From: Candidatus Thorarchaeota archaeon
Lineage (GTDB): Archaea > Asgardarchaeota > Thorarchaeia > Thorarchaeales > Thorarchaeaceae
DNA: 58,194 nucleotides
Direction: 5' to 3'
Assembly (NCBI GenBank): GCA_019057475.1
Contig: DXJO01000026.1
Span: forward strand, 1-58,194
Below the pieces are notes generated by a model, which ran no database searches, was not told the DNA's origin, and saw only the letters and a program-made list of their open reading frames with translations. How positions within the stretch are numbered: position 1 is the stretch's first letter; every line of letters begins with the position of its first letter. Below are positions 1 to 58,194 of this stretch, one piece after another. The translations under genes and the position numbers were made by a program.

Positions 1-154
1 GTTTTCTGTCTCCGTCCAACTGGCGGCGACCGAATTACGTGGAGGCCCTAGCAATCAGCATTGAACATCCACACCACTCAATCCTGAGCATATGTTATAA
101 CCACCTACAAAATGTCCAAGATTGTGCAAATTGTTGGCAGCTGTTGCATGCCCT
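1..154 (-). mobile_element. Left part of a non-autonomous IS607-like element (tnpB internal-deletion derivative), truncated by the window start
   Basis: Reverse complement aligns with 57927-58081 with 15 differences in 155 columns (hand count). On the minus strand it reads AGGG|CATGCAACAG, end motif TTGCACAA-N5-GACA, TATA-like TTATAA, ATGCTGATTGCTAGGGC, then GGTCGCCGCCAGTTGGACGGAGACAGAAAAC. Confidence 0.8.
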
Positions 155-6806: not shown

Positions 6807-8792
6807 TCAAGCAGCATCTCTCAAACTGCGCTTTCTGAGCACATAGAACGCTAGAATCCATACTACGCCTGTAACAGCAAATGCTGCGACAAACTCCATC
6901 GGGATGGATCCCCAGAATTCGGTCAGGGAAGGTGTCCCGACAAAACGAATACTCTGAGTGCTCAACGAATCGACATCATATGAAATCAGGTCAACGAGTA
7001 TGTAGCCATCATAAAGCAGGCTCACTTCGGCTGGCTGCGTAGATACAGACAGGACGAAAGTGGTTGTGCTGTTTATCCACACAATCTCATCCAGTAGGAT
7101 TTCATTGTAGTAGCCGTAGACTCTGACTGGCACTCGCTGGGAATATGAGTATAGATTCAAGTCTTCATTCAGGTCTTCTATCGTTACGGTCAACGTATCA
7201 TCGGTCCAGTTGTAGACCACGCCAGCAAACGAATAATCAGGGAGGAACGGATTGTCGAACCAGGGTAGGAAGAACCAATCCATGTCTTGTCCACATACGA
7301 ACTCGAATGCTTCCTGCAGATCTGGCAGTGTGGCTATCTCGAAATAGTTCTGCTTGAAGAAGTGGCTCAAGCTCTCCACGAATTTCTCATGACCTATCTC
7401 CACCCTGAGCTTCTCAAGTATCAGTGGAGCTTTCGTGTAGTCAATGTATCCCACCAGTTCGGGCCTCTCATAGTTGGACTGGTTTATCACACTCCCAACA
7501 CCGAATTCCTCGTGGTGAGTTCGTACGGTGTCAAGATAGCGATAGTACTGCAAATACTCCCAATCGGAGTAGTAGACTTCACCGTAGTAATTGTGCGACC
7601 AGCAGGTCAGACCCTCGTCAAGGAAACCCCAGTCAATAGAGTCATCTCCGACCAGTTGAGACCACCACTGATGGGCGACCTCATGCACAACAACCAGCTC
7701 CAAAAACTCTGGATAAAGGCTTCCTGCTCTCACGCTCTCAAGCGCCCCACGAGTCATGTACACTTGACAGGGGTATTCCATGCCGCCATAGAATGCATGC
7801 TGCTCCACAATGTTAAGGGTCGAGTACGGATACACCCCATAAGTTTCGTTCAATAAAGTGAGTGTCAGAATGGCCCACTCCAGTACATCATCCTCCCATT
7901 CAGGTTGAGAGTCTGGGAGATAGAAACTACTCACGGTCACACCGTTCACGTTTCCAGACTCCACCTGATAGTGTCTGGATGCTGAGAAAGTGACCTCTCG
8001 CACTGGCAAAATCGGGTCGAAGTGATAGGTCGTGCTCTCTCCGTCAGAATCGCTCCCTATCAGCTCCCCCGTGGCAGCCACGGTCATACCATCTGGGGTG
8101 TTCACGCAGAAATCATAGAACGCCATGTCAATGTAGAATGGATCACCAAAACCCACGTAGGGGTCGGTATTCCAGCCATCGAACTTGTCGTACACACAGG
8201 GAATTGGGTAGCTACTAGAAAAGGTGTAGATCCGTGACTGGCTGCCATCTTCTCCGTGCACGTTCGCCCTGTCAAGGCCGTCAGGGAGGGTTGTGATGAA
8301 CTCAATGTGAAATTCCGTCCTCTCACCAGGCTGTAGAGCTTCAGTCAGGTTCACCCACATCAACTGCTGCTCCCACAGGACACCATAGGGAAGTTCCTGG
8401 GCCGGATTTCCCATTGTAGTTACATTCAAGATTGTGATGTTCCCCTGTCTACTATCATACAACATCCCAGACGGATAGAGATGAAACGGTATTCGAGAAA
8501 ATGGGACCGGATCATCATTGTAGAAATCGACCGTTAGATTGCCTTCAACAATCGACTCAACCTCGTTCAGTTTCACGGACAGGTTGAGATGTGAGAATTC
8601 AGTACCCGTGAAGTTGCCCACAGAGAACTCATCGTAGTCCGCAATGATAATTGAATCGATGACTGGAGGGGTTCCAGACGACTGATACGTATCTTGTGAT
8701 TCCAATAGGCCTTCATCCCCGTTTATCGGGACAAGACTGACAGAAACTAGCAGAACAAAGATTAGGAGCCGTGGCACACCTCTCATCGTCAT
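6807..8792 (-). CDS. M1 family aminopeptidase, secreted and C-terminally anchored
   Basis: GGMEYP, HEVAHQWW followed by LDEGL, signal peptide, C-terminal TM helix plus RKR. Confidence 0.9.
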   Translation of the reverse strand: MTMRGVPRLLIFVLLVSVSLVPINGDEGLLESQDTYQSSGTPPVIDSIIIADYDEFSVGNFTGTEFSHLNLSVKLNEVESIVEGNLTVDFYNDDPVPFSRIPFHLYPSGMLYDSRQGNITILNVTTMGNPAQELPYGVLWEQQLMWVNLTEALQPGERTEFHIEFITTLPDGLDRANVHGEDGSQSRIYTFSSSYPIPCVYDKFDGWNTDPYVGFGDPFYIDMAFYDFCVNTPDGMTVAATGELIGSDSDGESTTYHFDPILPVREVTFSASRHYQVESGNVNGVTVSSFYLPDSQPEWEDDVLEWAILTLTLLNETYGVYPYSTLNIVEQHAFYGGMEYPCQVYMTRGALESVRAGSLYPEFLELVVVHEVAHQWWSQLVGDDSIDWGFLDEGLTCWSHNYYGEVYYSDWEYLQYYRYLDTVRTHHEEFGVGSVINQSNYERPELVGYIDYTKAPLILEKLRVEIGHEKFVESLSHFFKQNYFEIATLPDLQEAFEFVCGQDMDWFFLPWFDNPFLPDYSFAGVVYNWTDDTLTVTIEDLNEDLNLYSYSQRVPVRVYGYYNEILLDEIVWINSTTTFVLSVSTQPAEVSLLYDGYILVDLISYDVDSLSTQSIRFVGTPSLTEFWGSIPMEFVAAFAVTGVVWILAFYVLRKRSLRDAA

Positions 8793-8880
8793 CACTCTCA
8801 TCAATGGTAACAAAATTCCTGAATAAGGATGCCTTTCAGCGCAGATATTCCCAACCTACGAATTAGCCGGGTGAATTGCA

Positions 8881-9050
8881 TCATTCCTGAAGCCAGCTAT
8901 CTTCTTGGCCTAGGGAACCAGTTCCGCGCCGACGCAATATGCAGAACACAATGGTACCCATAATCACTAGTCCCAGAGCTAAAAGTCCTATGATGGAAAC
9001 TACGACCATCGGTGTTTCAGTTGTAATAATCTGCAGAATCTCAATCCTCA
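8881..9050 (-). pseudogene. Orphan C-terminal membrane-anchor fragment of a lost surface protein
   Basis: IITTETPMVVVSIIGLLALGLVIMGTIVFCILRRR resembles the anchors of neighbouring surface proteins. No credible start; the frame runs back through the fadD terminator. Confidence 0.5.
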
Positions 9051-9073
9051 GTCTACTATCTACACGTGGCAAT

Positions 9074-9105
9074 AAAAGGGAGAGGGCGGGGGCTGTGCCC
9101 CCACC
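9074..9105 (-). terminator. GC-rich hairpin plus pyrimidine/U tract downstream of fadD
   Basis: Minus strand GGTGGGGGC-ACA-GCCCCCGCC followed by CTCTCCCTTTT. Confidence 0.65.
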
Positions 9106-9118
9106 TGAGGTATTGCTA

Positions 9119-9224
9119 CCGTTCATTGTAAGTTGTACAAAGTTGGACACCGAAGTCCAGTACGTCCAGAAAACGGCACTGGACTACTCCGTGAGGAACC
9201 TTCGCAGGTGTGTCATATTCCTCA
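9119..9224 (-). ncRNA. Putative structured RNA inside the mini-element
   Basis: TTTATAT box at 9253-9247, about 29 nt before hairpin 1 (TGAGGAA/TTCCTCA with inner CCT-GCGA-AGG). Hairpin 2 is AGTCCAGTGC/GTACTGGACT at 9185-9154. Confidence 0.55.
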
Positions 9225-9307
9225 GAGATCAATGTCGTATTGCTCCATATAAAGCCCACAATAGAATTGTCCACGTATGTCCAACTTTGCACCATCTGTT
9301 TACTACC
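9119..9307 (-). mobile_element. Complete 189-bp non-autonomous IS607-like element
   Basis: Bounded by GG at both ends (AGAG-GG-TAGTAAACAG ... AATGAAC-GG-TAGCAAT). Subterminal inverted repeat 9135-9150 / 9277-9292 (14 of 16). Right-end motif TGTC-N5-TTGTACAA is shared with the element at the window end. Removing it restores the fadD end AGA GGG TAG next to its terminator. Confidence 0.75.
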
Positions 9308-11036
9308 CTCTCTTCTTGAGTTCTTCTTCTCGCAGCTGTCGTCTCAATATCTTCCCGACGGCAGTCATTGGTAGCGAGTCTACAATCGCGACCTCACGAG
9401 GACGCTTGTATCCAGCTAGCCGCTCCTTAGCCCACGCAACGATCTCTTCCGGCGTTGCGGTTTCGCCGTCCTTTAGGACCACATACGCCTTCACGTACTC
9501 ATTGGTTGGGTCATCCTCTCGTGGCAATCCAATCACACCTGCCATCTTGATCTTGGGGTGCTCATACAGAGTATCCTCAACTTCCCGCGGGTACGCCTTC
9601 AAACCACCGACATTGATCATGTCCTTTTTCCTGTCCGAAATGGCAAAGAAGCCTTCTTCGTCCATGTGACCAATGTCACCTGTGAGGAAGTACCGCCTGC
9701 CACTAAATTCTCGGAACACCTCAGCTGTTTCTTTGGGTTTGTTGTAGTATCCTTTCATAACCTGCGGTCCACTGAGAGCTATCTCTCCAACCTCACCCTG
9801 GGGCAGCTCTTTGGATCCTGTTTCAATGTCGACGATTGTCGCATATGTGTTACTGATTGGCATTCCAATTGAACCAAACTTGCGAGTGGTCCTGGATGGC
9901 GGATTTCCGTGGGTCAACGGCGATGTTTCCGTCAGGCCATAGCCCTCAAACAAGGTGCCGCCTGCCACTGACTCAAAGAGTTTGGCCAATTCTGGAGGCA
10001 GAGGTGCGGCTCCAGACGCACAGACCTTGAGGCTTGAAAGGTCGAAATCTTTCACCTTTGGGTGATTTGCGATTCCTGCATATAGCGCAGGAACACAGTG
10101 CAGTATTGTGCCCTTGTTTTTCGCTATTGCTGCAAGCAAATCTGTCATTGGTGGTTTCCCTGCTCTTGGATCGGGGATGCAGATCACCCTATTGGCTTGA
10201 CGAACACAGGTTATCATTGTCAGCGTCAGACCGTAGCTGTGATACCACGGAAGGGCGCCCACGTATACTTCCTCACCTTCTATCAGGTTGTTAGGAGGCT
10301 CAAGTTGAGCCCACTCGTGCATCTGCTCCACATTGCTGGTCAAGTTATAGTGGGTCAACTCCGCACCTTTCGGTGTGCCTGTTGTCCCGCCAGTGTACAT
10401 AATCAAAGCTGCATCTTCTTTGGGGTTGACTGACACTTCAGGTGCCTTCGCCTCGTAGTTGGCCATGATGTCCTTGTAGAAGACGGTGATGTCCTCGTCG
10501 TAGGACGGACTCTTGGGGATTTTGCCTAGGAGACCTCCTATTACGGCTTTCATCTTCGAAATGAATTCCGCGGCGCTACAGACAACCACAGTCTTAACAT
10601 CGGTGCCCTTTATGGCTTCGTATGTTAATGGTGTGAACTTTTGATGGTCAAAGCAAAACACCGCGACAGCACCAGAATCCTTCAACTGAAAGTTCAGTTC
10701 ACGTGCCGTGTACGACGGATTGCACGTAACCGTGATTCCTCCGGCTTTCAAGATGCCAAAGAACACAGGAGGATAATGGGGCATGTTGGGTAAGAAAATC
10801 GCGACCCTATCGCCCTTCTTGATTCCTTTACTAGCAAGGAAATTAGCAATCCTATCAGCGCTCTCTCTCACCTGCGAGTAGGTCTGATTATTGCCGGCCC
10901 ACATTGTGTATATCTTTTCGCCGTACTTGTCGGCAGTCCTATCAAGCATTGCGAAGAGGGGTTCCTCTGGAAGCTCCAGAGATTTTTTCACTTTCTCTGG
11001 CCACTTTCCGCCTTTGTGCCATAACATTTCTTCCAT
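9303..11036 (-). CDS. fadD: Long-chain fatty acid/acyl-CoA ligase (AMP-forming)
   Basis: YTGGTTGTPKG, EGYGLTETSP, TGDIG, DRKKDMI..GG, LPMTAVGKILRR. Confidence 0.93.
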   Translation of the reverse strand: MEEMLWHKGGKWPEKVKKSLELPEEPLFAMLDRTADKYGEKIYTMWAGNNQTYSQVRESADRIANFLASKGIKKGDRVAIFLPNMPHYPPVFFGILKAGGITVTCNPSYTARELNFQLKDSGAVAVFCFDHQKFTPLTYEAIKGTDVKTVVVCSAAEFISKMKAVIGGLLGKIPKSPSYDEDITVFYKDIMANYEAKAPEVSVNPKEDAALIMYTGGTTGTPKGAELTHYNLTSNVEQMHEWAQLEPPNNLIEGEEVYVGALPWYHSYGLTLTMITCVRQANRVICIPDPRAGKPPMTDLLAAIAKNKGTILHCVPALYAGIANHPKVKDFDLSSLKVCASGAAPLPPELAKLFESVAGGTLFEGYGLTETSPLTHGNPPSRTTRKFGSIGMPISNTYATIVDIETGSKELPQGEVGEIALSGPQVMKGYYNKPKETAEVFREFSGRRYFLTGDIGHMDEEGFFAISDRKKDMINVGGLKAYPREVEDTLYEHPKIKMAGVIGLPREDDPTNEYVKAYVVLKDGETATPEEIVAWAKERLAGYKRPREVAIVDSLPMTAVGKILRRQLREEELKKRG

Positions 11037-57926: not shown

Positions 57927-58194
57927 AGGGTATGCAACAGCTGCCAAGAACTTGTACAATTCTAGACATTTTGTAGGTGTTTATAACATACTGCTCAGGA
58001 TTGAGTGGTGTGGACGTTCAATGCTGATTGCTAGGGCGTGCATGAAATTTGGTCGCCGCCAGTTGGACGGAGACAGAAAACGCCTGTGGAGAGGACGTGA
58101 AACTAGTCGCAGATTCAGCAGGATCTGCAGAGCAGACCTCAATGAATCAGGAACCGAACATCAGTCATGGACATTGATGTCTAGGGTTGTACAA
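57927..58194 (+). mobile_element. Non-autonomous IS607-like element retaining the omega-RNA region, truncated just before its right tip
   Basis: AGGG|TATGCAACAG left end; TTGTACAATTCTAGACA (57952-57968) inverted against TGTCTAGGGTTGTACAA (58178-58194); TTTATAA box; MLIARA start fused to a TnpB-tail-like frame VAASWTETENACGEDV...SMNQEP. Confidence 0.8.
58051..58194 (+). ncRNA. Putative TnpB omega-RNA (right-end RNA) scaffold
   Basis: ACGCCTGTGGAG...GAATCAGGAA signature recalled from tnpB 3' ends. Hairpins GCAGATT/GATCTGC and AACC-ACATCA-GTC/GAC-TGATGT-GGTT. Confidence 0.6.

What the first reader, a model, noticed from the sequence alone, without database searches (positions are those of the whole stretch)
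9119..9253. Compact RNA of about 105 nt with a candidate 3' pseudoknot, unlike the terminal omega-RNA
Seen: a TTTATAT box about 29 nt before hairpin 1 (UGAGGAA/UUCCUCA, 9-nt bulge, CCU-GCGA-AGG GNRA loop). Hairpin 2 is a 10-bp stem whose G-U pair works only on the minus strand. CCGUUU at the stem-loop junction is complementary to the terminal GAACGG. It lacks the ACGCCTGTGGAG/CAGGAA signature of the terminal elements. Established: TnpB omega-RNAs form a pseudoknot next to the guide. Inference: a second, minimal scaffold for a different effector, or an undescribed RNA class carried between IS607-type ends.
Basis: partly seen in the sequence, partly recalled or inferred. Interest (0 to 1): 0.7.

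Follow-up and report, generated by a model that had tools for sequence, protein, structure and literature searches.

The report
Gene-less guide-RNA mini-transposon in Thorarchaeota
The flagged hairpins are the promoter-driven guide-RNA scaffold of a 187-base, protein-less jumping element that most likely borrows a large TnpB-type RNA-guided nuclease encoded elsewhere in this Asgard archaeon's genome; this is a known kind of element, in a new RNA family.

Summary
The region is real but is not a lone RNA gene. It lies in a 187-nt mobile insertion (window 9119-9307, minus strand). The genome holds 13 near-full copies. Three sister genomes and an environmental contig have precise empty sites.

The element has an IS607-type left end and a conserved archaeal TATA box 22-24 nt upstream of hairpin 1. 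An RNA of about 105 nt follows, and its last 70 nt are homologous to the 3' end of three ~745-aa TnpB/Cas12f-fold nuclease genes elsewhere in the genome.

On 49-65 diverged copies, hairpin 1, a closing helix P2 and a short hairpin P3 are kept by compensatory changes. Two further pseudoknots each have one covarying pair.

The RNA matches no Rfam family. Its core occurs in 43 of 61 genomes of the family, up to 71 copies each. No transcript was seen in the available metatranscriptome contigs.

Verdict: a stand-alone omega-RNA mini-transposon, a new member of a known kind. The scan had already reached this reading on other copies in this genome.

The parts
9119..9307 (-). Whole gene-less mini-element. 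The insertion is 187 nt. The junction is ambiguous over GGTAG (9307-9303 and 9120-9116), and the crossover is narrowed to the GG dinucleotides 9307-9306 and 9120-9119.
   Evidence: Thirteen copies of 84-94% identity share these ends. Empty sites in G005, G003 and G004 join 9303 to 9120. Environmental contigs skip 187 nt. A paralogous empty site in C40 has a 2-nt GG ambiguity.
9262..9307 (-). Left end: GGGTAGTAAACAGATGG followed by two TGGACA boxes. These boxes are inverted copies of the TGTCCA/TGTACA boxes at the right end and are probably transposase-binding repeats.
   Evidence: Inverted repeat 9278-9292 with 9135-9149. A left-end profile also finds the left end of the tnpB-bearing element at C42:185587. 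A weak reverse-strand model hit lies at 9228-9299.
9246..9259 (-). Archaeal promoter: purine-rich GUGGGC followed by the TATA box TTTATATG (9253-9246). The predicted transcription start is near 9225.
   Evidence: A TATA-like octamer lies 20-24 nt upstream of the GAGG of P1 in 44 of 49 diverged copies, although the sequence between them differs.
9192..9224 (-).
   Evidence: The five outer pairs are 91.7% paired. GAGGU/ACCUC changes to GAGGAA/UUCCUC or GAGGGU/ACCCUC in other lineages. The GNRA loop is kept as GUAA, GUGA or GCGA in the own-genus copies.
9210..9214 (-). GACAC in the P1 bulge, the 5' side of candidate pseudoknot PK3. It pairs with GUGUC at 9150-9146.
   Evidence: 92.8% paired. One pair shows CG 37, UG 5, GC 2, UA 2, for example GACAG with CUGUC in L073 and L052.
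9151..9191 (-). P2 (CGGAGU 9191-9186 with ACUUCG 9156-9151) enclosing P3 (GUCCAG 9184-9179, loop UGCCGUUUU 9178-9170, CUGGAC 9169-9164).
   Evidence: P2 is 98.3% paired, with changes on both sides in 4 of 6 pairs. P3 has changes on both sides in 3-4 of 6 pairs.
9135..9163 (-). Pseudoknot PK1: GUAC 9163-9160 (inside the P2 loop) pairs with GUAC 9138-9135. Other lineages have GGAC with GUCC.
   Evidence: The middle pair switches between G-C (37 rows) and U-A (24 rows) with 1 exception in 63 rows. Wobble intermediates are seen.
9119..9123 (-). AACGG, the last scaffold bases. It is also the right transposon terminus, ending in GG.
   Evidence: 94.6% paired with no change on both sides in the alignments. 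One two-step compensation was found in 86 genomes.
9099..9118 (-). Predicted guide (UAGCAAUACCUCAGGUGGGG), made of flanking host DNA just outside the element.
   Evidence: Sequence similarity between copies stops exactly at AACGG(T). In the empty site this stretch directly follows GAGGG, which is one of the two TAMs reported for IS607 TnpBs (PMC11061315).
9158..9158 (-).
   Evidence: For this copy the alternative fold is at -30.6 kcal/mol, against -21.6 for the nested family fold.

Best explanation
Window 9119-9307 (minus strand) is a protein-less IS607-type mini-transposon. Its only cargo is a promoter and a stand-alone omega-RNA-type guide scaffold.

Proposed mechanism:
1. Transcription starts about 23 nt downstream of the TATA box, at the foot of P1 (about 9225). 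This is inferred.
2. It yields a scaffold of about 105 nt: P1, then P2 enclosing P3, tied together by up to three pseudoknots. The RNA runs on into the flanking DNA, which becomes the guide (9118 downward).
3. The scaffold's 3' 70 nt are homologous to the RNA encoded at the 3' end of a Thorarchaeota-specific ~700-750-aa TnpB/Cas12f-fold nuclease. The genome has three intact paralogues of this nuclease, and it is proposed to load the RNA in trans. This is inferred.
4. The complex would cut element-free alleles, read as GGG TAM followed by the guide match, so that repair copies the element back (homing). This is inferred by analogy to IS605/IS607 TnpB.
5. Movement itself would be carried out by an IS607-type serine recombinase. 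It would exchange at the terminal GG dinucleotides and bind the TGTCCA/TGGACA repeats at both ends. This is also inferred.

Shown here: mobility, the element ends, homology to the nuclease-linked RNA, conservation of the promoter position, and covariation of P1, P2, P3 and PK1.
For: Mobility:
- 13 copies in the genome.
- Exact empty sites in three sister genomes, in environmental contigs and at a paralogous site.

Ends:
- GGG target, GG at both termini and no duplication. This matches IS607 (PMC6188088).
- The left end is homologous to that of the tnpB-bearing element at C42:185587.
- A MerR-HTH serine recombinase sits in the C53 element, and no Y1 transposase was found.

RNA:
- TATA spacing of 20-24 nt in 44 of 49 copies.
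- Structure 90-93% paired against 31-49% for slid controls, and 0 of 500 shuffles reached the covariation.

Effector:
- The RNA module overlaps the stop codon of ORFs ending ...HADxNAARNI.
- Pfam Cas12f1-like_TNB at 1e-13, plus sub-threshold TnpB/Cas12f2 NCBIfam hits.
- D510, E620, D713 and the CxxC pairs are invariant in 39 homologues.
- The AlphaFold model matches Cas12f, ISDra2 TnpB, ISFba1 TnpB and Fanzor2.

Co-occurrence in 25 genomes of the family:
- RNA and protein match (E <= 1e-20, some partial): 14.
- Neither: 7.
- RNA only: 4.
- Protein only: 0.

The concept of mobilised stand-alone omega-RNAs that act in trans is published (PMC10691335).
Against: - No transcript was seen. Contigs from three true RNA runs cover the neighbouring gene of relatives but not 9117-9303. 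This is weak evidence, because these were contigs only and came from relatives.
- The cognate pairing of RNA and protein is untested.
- G016 has 49 RNA cores but only a 56-aa remnant of the nuclease. G007 has only a broken fragment and G022 none. Many copies may therefore be orphans.
- This copy carries G9158, which favours a competing hairpin by about 9 kcal/mol over the nested family fold, not counting the pseudoknots.
- A paralogous empty site that matches a sister copy's guide at 21 of 22 positions survives uncut in the same genome.
- G-U cells outnumber A-C cells only 67 to 45, so the transcribed strand is not proven by wobble pairs.
Confidence: 0.78

Rival explanations
1. The element is only a DNA parasite (a MITE). 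On this reading the conserved stems and boxes serve recognition by the transposase at the DNA level, and no functional RNA is made.
For: The TGTCCA/TGGACA boxes occur inverted at both ends, as expected for IS607 subterminal repeats (PMC6188088). No transcript was detected. Near-identical copies in G016, which lacks an intact large TnpB, show that spread does not need the nuclease.
Against: IS607 transposases act on double-stranded DNA and need no hairpins. A TATA box is kept at a fixed distance from the first helix even in a P1-less subfamily, where it has moved to sit 22-23 nt before P2. The helices covary, and their sequence is homologous to the nuclease gene's 3' guide-RNA region.
Confidence: 0.12
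2. This particular copy is a dead relic. The family is functional, but the window copy is misfolded or silent and merely sits behind the acyl-CoA synthetase gene.
For: G9158 stabilises a competing 10-bp hairpin found in no other intact own-genome copy. The TATA box reads TTTATATG rather than TTTATATA. There is no RNA cover.
Against: All helices and all three pseudoknot complements are intact in this copy. It scores 96.6 bits against the family model, among the best hits. The orthologous copy is retained in G001 and G006.
Confidence: 0.25
3. The region encodes a small protein: the 59-aa ORF 9116-9295 on the minus strand, or the 89-aa ORF 8881-9150.
For: Both ORFs exist in this copy.
Against: The ATG of the 59-aa ORF arises from CAGATG, where the other copies read CAGCTG. 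The longest ATG ORF in 10 of the 12 other copies is 4-15 aa, and the other two reach 33 and 34 aa only by starting in the flanking DNA. The 89-aa ORF starts inside the element and so cannot exist at empty sites.
Confidence: 0.02
4. The host has domesticated these elements as a guide library. The many gene-less copies would supply trans-acting guides for regulation or defence rather than for transposon homing.
For: RNA cores outnumber nuclease genes: 23 to 3-4 in this genome and up to 71 in others. The nuclease paralogues are only 42-47% identical, so they are old rather than recently copied.
Against: Guides are simply the DNA next to each insertion. Apart from two paralogous or duplicated flanks, none has a further full-length match elsewhere in the genome. 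The RuvC triad is intact, unlike in domesticated TldR-type regulators. Copies are polymorphic between strains.
Confidence: 0.08

Closest known systems
Stand-alone, mobilised omega-RNAs of OMEGA systems (summarised in PMC10691335, which cites Altae-Tran et al. 2021)
   Same: It has no effector and no transposase gene and lies in the same genome as effector-bearing loci. It shares the effector locus's RNA scaffold and transposon ends. Its guide is the DNA just outside the right end.
   Different: It is archaeal (Thorarchaeota) and has its own TATA promoter. The ORF-embedded 5' part of the scaffold is replaced by a new leader hairpin (P1) whose bulge appears to pair with the 3' module. Trans activity is not tested here.
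IS607 TnpB with RAGATH-18-derived reRNA (ISFba1; PMC11061315, PDB 8IAZ)
   Same: The transposon context is the serine-recombinase type. The TAM is G-rich, and the GAGGG found at the window's empty site is one of the two reported TAMs. The scaffold has stem-loops plus pseudoknots next to a guide of about 20 nt. The protein fold matches.
   Different: There is no Rfam or RAGATH-18 match even at E = 10. The scaffold is about 105 nt rather than 187 nt. The effector is about 745 aa rather than 387 aa, with an extra ~350 aa of mostly helical N-terminal and REC-like sequence.
ISDra2 TnpB omega-RNA (PMC10097598, PDB 8H1J)
   Same: The bases just 5' of the guide form a pseudoknot with a distant loop: -5 to -3 in ISDra2, and -5 to -1 (AACGG) with the P3 loop here. 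The RNA overlaps the 3' end of the nuclease gene in the full-length elements.
   Different: The transposon type differs (IS200/IS605 with a Y1 transposase and a TTGAT TAM). There is no sequence similarity, and the helix layout is different.
The IS whose ends bracket this window (ACGCCTGTGGAG...GGGCAACGG; about 15 copies, many at contig ends)
   Same: It lies in the same genome. The last ~40 nt have the same layout (GGAC..GATGTCCAAGATTGTACAAGTT..AACGG). The left end also carries AACAGCTGC..TGGACA.
   Different: The upstream scaffold is different, and it is not detected by the covariance model of this RNA. It presumably serves the ordinary-sized TnpB.

Membership tests
Omega-RNA/reRNA guide scaffolds of TnpB-type nucleases | The scaffold is encoded at, and overlaps, the 3' end of a tnpB-type gene, ending at the transposon's right end. 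| tested here: met
   The same 70-nt module overlaps the stop codon of the C53, C42 and C54 genes and of homologues in other genomes.
Omega-RNA/reRNA guide scaffolds of TnpB-type nucleases | The guide is the variable DNA immediately outside the right end. | tested here: met
   Similarity between more than 60 copies stops at AACGG(T). The flanks are unrelated to each other.
Omega-RNA/reRNA guide scaffolds of TnpB-type nucleases | A pseudoknot involves the bases next to the guide. | tested here: inconclusive
   CCGUU with AACGG is 94.6% paired, with no change on both sides in 49-65 rows. Pattern counts give about 12 U.G copies, 2 C.A copies and 1 compensated U-A copy.
Omega-RNA/reRNA guide scaffolds of TnpB-type nucleases | The RNA is transcribed and bound by the nuclease, and it directs DNA cleavage. 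| not testable with these tools
   Only Logan contigs of relatives were available, and none covers the element in true RNA runs.
Rfam RNA families (including RAGATH-18) | Reaches the family's gathering score. | tested here: not met
   No hits at gathering thresholds over the window. At E <= 10 there were only chance hits of 13-14 bits.
IS607-family transposable elements (here a non-autonomous derivative) | Insertion at a (G)GG target, GG at both termini and no target-site duplication. | tested here: met
   The empty and occupied sites differ by 187 nt. The junction ambiguity is GGTAG at the window locus and GG at the C40 paralogue. The left flank reads GGG in 12 of 13 copies. The criterion is taken from PMC6188088.
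IS607-family transposable elements (here a non-autonomous derivative) | A serine-recombinase TnpA with an N-terminal MerR-like HTH is present in related autonomous elements. | tested here: met
   A PF00239 hit lies at C53:934-1218, preceded by MFSVSQVALRLGVCSKTFRQWDKKGHIKCLRTPGGHRR. It sits inside the element that ends with the tnpB-like gene. That copy may be truncated (179-aa frame).
IS607-family transposable elements (here a non-autonomous derivative) | Short repeated subterminal motifs at both ends. | tested here: met
   There are two TGGACA boxes at the left end and TGTCCA/TGTACA boxes at the right end. Binding by TnpA was not tested.
TnpB/Cas12 superfamily (the presumed partner protein) | A split RuvC domain with a D-E-D triad and a zinc-ribbon (TNB) insert, plus a WED/REC N-terminal part. 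| tested here: met
   PF07282 at 1e-13. D510, E620, D713 and C676/C679/C703/C706 are invariant. Foldseek gives probability 1.0 to Cas12f, TnpB and Fanzor structures. All curated NCBIfam cut-offs are missed, so the protein belongs to no named subfamily.

The most novel reading that the evidence does not exclude
In Thorarchaeota the guide RNA of a double-sized TnpB may have escaped its gene. It would have acquired its own promoter and a new leader hairpin that replaces the ORF-embedded half of the scaffold, then multiplied to dozens of copies per genome. It persists even where the nuclease gene is gone. If so, this is a natural 'effector in one place, many independently transcribed guides elsewhere' arrangement, a possible living intermediate between transposon-bound omega-RNA and free CRISPR-like guide loci. 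It would also give a compact (~105-nt) scaffold for a new Cas12f-fold nuclease.
Probability: 0.25. Interest if true: 0.6.

Novelty: new member of a known kind. Interest (0 to 1): 0.36.

Why it matters
This resolves an apparent orphan RNA into a defined system. The system has an uncatalogued guide-RNA family with more than 850 copies in 43 of 61 Thorarchaeota genomes searched. It has a lineage-specific ~745-aa TnpB/Cas12f-fold nuclease as likely partner, and IS607-type ends.

For annotation, these 190-nt repeats should be masked as mobile guide-RNA elements and not called as sRNA genes or small ORFs.

For biology, the large excess of promoter-bearing guides over nuclease genes, and their persistence where the nuclease is lost, is a usable natural case for asking whether stand-alone omega-RNAs work in trans in archaea.

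For tools, the compact scaffold and its covariation-supported fold give a starting point for testing a new Asgard RNA-guided nuclease.

Tried and rejected
- **Rfam.** Searches at gathering thresholds and at E <= 10 gave nothing meaningful.
- **Small-protein reading.** Rejected because the ORF is not conserved.
- **Expression.** Ten candidate runs each held only 4-11% of the sampled words. Laying four of them showed relatives' acyl-CoA synthetase mRNA contigs but no RNA contig on the element. One probably-DNA run gave the empty allele and another copy. Expression is therefore neither shown nor excluded, and no habitat or strain should be named from these small shares.
- **Strand test by wobble pairs.** G-U 67 against A-C 45, which is indecisive.
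- **Pseudoknot PK2 by IUPAC pattern counts.** The patterns were loose and most hits were chance. Reading the real copies by eye gave only one compensated double change.
- **Giant neighbouring genes.** I tried to confirm that the 1822-aa and 1807-aa genes next to two of the nuclease genes are Cas1-like, as earlier scan notes say. Neither Pfam nor NCBIfam gave a hit even at E <= 1. I did not fold them.
- **Y1 transposase (PF01797).** Not found in this 96%-complete genome, which argues against IS200/IS605-type single-strand transposition.
- **One failed call.** One search had wrong coordinates and gave no data.
- **Kersulyte et al. 2000.** The paper could not be read. The GG-target rule is cited from PMC6188088 instead.

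Full report
**What is at the coordinates**

The finding lies in the 490-nt gap between two minus-strand genes. One is an AMP-binding acyl-CoA synthetase-like gene (9303-11036). The other is a 668-aa gene (6807-8813).

- TTTATAT at 9253-9247.
- Hairpin 1 at 9224-9192, with its 9-nt bulge and GCGA loop.
- A 10-bp stem, 9185-9176 with 9163-9154.
- The CCGUU / AACGG complementarity.

Thermodynamics alone is unimpressive. The fold z-score is -2.04 on the minus strand and -0.87 on the plus strand. No Rfam family matches at gathering thresholds or at E <= 10.

**It is a mobile repeat**

- A DNA search of the window's own genome found 13 near-full copies (84-94% identical) of a ~190-nt unit spanning window 9118-9308.
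- Aligned with their flanks, the copies begin GGGT(T/A)GCAAACAGCTG and end ACAATGAACGG(T). Similarity stops exactly there.
- At the orthologous locus, sister genomes G005, G003 and G004 join window 9303 directly to 9120. They lack 187 nt, with a 5-nt junction ambiguity (GGTAG). G001 and G006 have the element.
- Two contigs from a public run skip the same 187 nt (9111->9299 and 9115->9303).
- A paralogous empty site inside the genome (C40:~390-424) matches the occupied C40:76333-76522 site. Its junction ambiguity is only GG.
- Combining the two cases places the exchange in the GG dinucleotides at both termini. The target is GGG (12 of 13 left flanks) and there is no target duplication.
- That is the IS607 signature as described in PMC6188088: GG at the termini, a (G)GG target, no duplication, and repeated subterminal motifs.
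- Such motifs are present. There are two TGGACA boxes at the left end and inverted TGTCCA/TGTACA boxes at the right end.
- Because the target read GGGTAG, the insertion left the synthetase's TAG stop codon (9305-9303) unchanged.

**Longer versions and the partner gene**

- Partial matches to the last ~70 nt lie at the 3' ends of long ORFs, overlapping their stop codons. These are at C53:7049-9283, C42:185822-187885 and C54:171843-173864. A truncated copy lies in C39.
- The proteins are 42-47% identical to each other and end ...HADxNAARNI.
- Pfam finds only the Cas12f1-like TNB domain (1e-13). NCBIfam gives Cas12f2, TnpB and IS607_TnpB hits far below their cut-offs, restricted to residues ~500-735. 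PDB sequence hits are Cas12f proteins.
- In 39 homologues D510, E620, D713 and two CxxC pairs are invariant.
- An AlphaFold2 model (mean pLDDT 75) matches Cas12f, ISDra2 TnpB, ISFba1 TnpB and Fanzor2 at Foldseek probability 1.0.
- Named homologues are all 'Candidatus Thorarchaeota'.
- The C42 element carries only this gene, and its left end (C42:185587) is homologous to the mini-element's left end.
- The C53 element also holds a MerR-HTH serine recombinase (PF00239, C53:934-1218) and a giant 1822-aa gene with no Pfam or NCBIfam match.
- No Y1 transposase was found in the genome.

The mini-element is therefore a deletion derivative. It keeps the left end and the right end with its guide-RNA module. 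In between lie a promoter and hairpin P1 that have no counterpart in the full-length loci.

**The RNA fold**

I fetched 60 further copies from 15 genomes of nine genera. I aligned them with MAFFT, without using structure: A1 has 65 rows of the 85-nt core, including 8 nuclease-linked copies, and A2 has 49 gene-less rows that include P1.

Pair counts:

| Helix | Pairing | Cells paired | Covariation |
|---|---|---|---|
| P1 | outer stem of hairpin 1 | 91.7% | see lineage variants below |
| P2 | CGGAGU / ACUUCG | 98.3% | 4 of 6 pairs change on both sides |
| P3 | GUCCAG - 9 nt - CUGGAC | 87% | 3-4 covarying pairs |
| PK1 | GUAC with GUAC here, GGAC with GUCC elsewhere | 93.1% (A2), 91.4% (A1) | middle pair G-C 37 / U-A 24, one exception |
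| PK3 | GACAC in the P1 bulge with GUGUC | 92.8% | one pair with four pair types |

- P1 shows the lineage variants GAGGU/ACCUC, GAGGAA/UUCCUC and GAGGGU/ACCCUC.
- Overall 92.9% of cells pair, against 33-44% for slid partners. None of 500 shuffles reached the observed covariation.
- These sequences are related, so the shuffle count overstates significance. The slid controls and the repeated independent pair types are the firmer evidence.
- For PK2, pattern counts over 86 genomes gave about 12 copies with a U.G wobble, 2 with a C.A mismatch and 1 with the compensated U-A pair (G004:C75:9877-9936). That is suggestive only.
- A pseudoknot formed by the bases next to the guide is what the ISDra2 structure shows (PMC10097598). 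ISFba1 reRNA has two pseudoknots (PMC11061315).

It is incompatible with P2, P3 and PK1. It depends on G9158, and 12 of the 13 own-genome copies have A there. Their minimum-energy folds contain P3 instead. In this copy the alternative hairpin is favoured by about 9 kcal/mol over the nested family fold, before pseudoknots and protein are counted. This copy may therefore fold less well.

**Promoter**

A TATA-like octamer preceded by a purine-rich stretch lies 20-24 nt upstream of the GAGG of P1 in 44 of 49 copies, although the sequence between them differs. In a P1-less subfamily (G016) the box sits about the same distance before P2.

**Distribution and dependence**

- A covariance model of the core (R1) finds the RNA in 43 of 61 genomes of the family and 13 of 16 genera. 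Copy numbers reach 71 per genome, with more than 850 hits in total.
- In the window it finds only 9118-9201 (96.6 bits). It does not match the window-end IS. That IS nevertheless shares the layout of the last ~40 nt.
- Among 25 genomes scored for both RNA and protein: 14 have both, 7 have neither, 4 have RNA only and none has the protein alone.
- A profile search of the four RNA-only genomes found only fragments or nothing. G016 has 49 RNA cores but only a 56-aa remnant of the nuclease.
- The RNA therefore follows the protein lineage but can outlive it.

**Function**

- By homology and anatomy this is a stand-alone omega-RNA. PMC10691335 states that such mobilised, effector-less omega-RNAs exist and work in trans.
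- The empty site reads GAGGG followed by the guide sequence. GAGGG is one of the two TAMs measured for IS607 TnpBs.
- Transcription, loading and cleavage are inferred. The only expression data available were contigs of relatives, and none covers the element in true RNA libraries.
- One paralogous empty site that matches a sister copy's guide at 21 of 22 positions persists uncut. This cautions against assuming high activity.

**Earlier notes of this scan**

- e1-5526883, on other copies in this genome, reached the same reading. My alignments and counts are independent of it and agree. The exception is the guide-adjacent pseudoknot, which I find conserved rather than clearly compensated.
- e1-5526435 calls this stretch an element inserted silently at the stop codon. 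I confirm this.
- The notes that call the giant neighbour Cas1-like could not be confirmed with HMM libraries.

**Verdict**

This is a new member, in an uncatalogued RNA family, of a known kind of system. Interest is moderate.

Noticed in passing
G000 contig C40:390-424, compared with C40:76333-76543 (outside the window): A paralogous, unoccupied target (..AGAAAGGG|TTCGTATGGAGGGAATGTATCG) matches the guide of the occupied copy at 21 of 22 positions and coexists with it in the same genome. It is either an uncut homing target or a sign of low nuclease activity.
   Followed up: partly
G000 C9:3840-4110 and C51:31050-31320 (outside the window): Two elements of different subfamilies share the same right flank (at least 60 nt, about 95% identical) and the rare AACAG terminus, but their left flanks are unrelated. 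This suggests recombination between elements or repeated use of a duplicated target.
   Followed up: no
G000 C53:~668-690 and C53:9290-9305 (outside the window): The DNA just after the right end of the full-length C53 element (GGTTCCGTAACTG) repeats the first 13 nt of that element's own left end. Its guide would therefore partly match its own left end. This may be a trace of tandem insertion or of the circle junction.
   Followed up: no
G000 C53:1344-6812 (-) and C54:166134-171555 (-) (outside the window): Giant genes of 1822 aa and 1807 aa are transcribed divergently from two of the three large tnpB-like genes. Neither Pfam nor NCBIfam gives a hit even at E <= 1. Earlier scan notes call them Cas1-like, which was not verified here.
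   Followed up: partly
window 1-154 and 57927-58194: Both contig ends are copies of another IS whose RNA tail (..ACGCCTGTGGAG..CAGGAACCGAAC..GGACATTGATGTCCAAGATTGTACAAGTTTCGGGCAACGG) recurs at many contig ends in the assembly. Its last ~40 nt have the same layout as the RNA studied here.
   Followed up: partly
genome G016 (same family, different genus): This genome has 49 matches to the RNA core, including near-identical P1-less copies with their own TATA box. Only a 56-aa remnant of the large TnpB-like gene is found in this 98%-complete assembly.
   Followed up: partly
window 8881-9012 (-): Downstream of the element, an ATG-started frame of about 43 aa encodes a single hydrophobic helix followed by RRRG (MVVVSIIGLLALGLVIMGTIVFCILRRRG...). 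The DNA is 83-89% identical in sister genomes. It may be an unannotated small membrane protein.
   Followed up: no
window 9111-9303: Contigs of one public cold-seep run (probably DNA) carry the element-free allele (a 187-nt skip), so the insertion is polymorphic in nature.
   Followed up: yes
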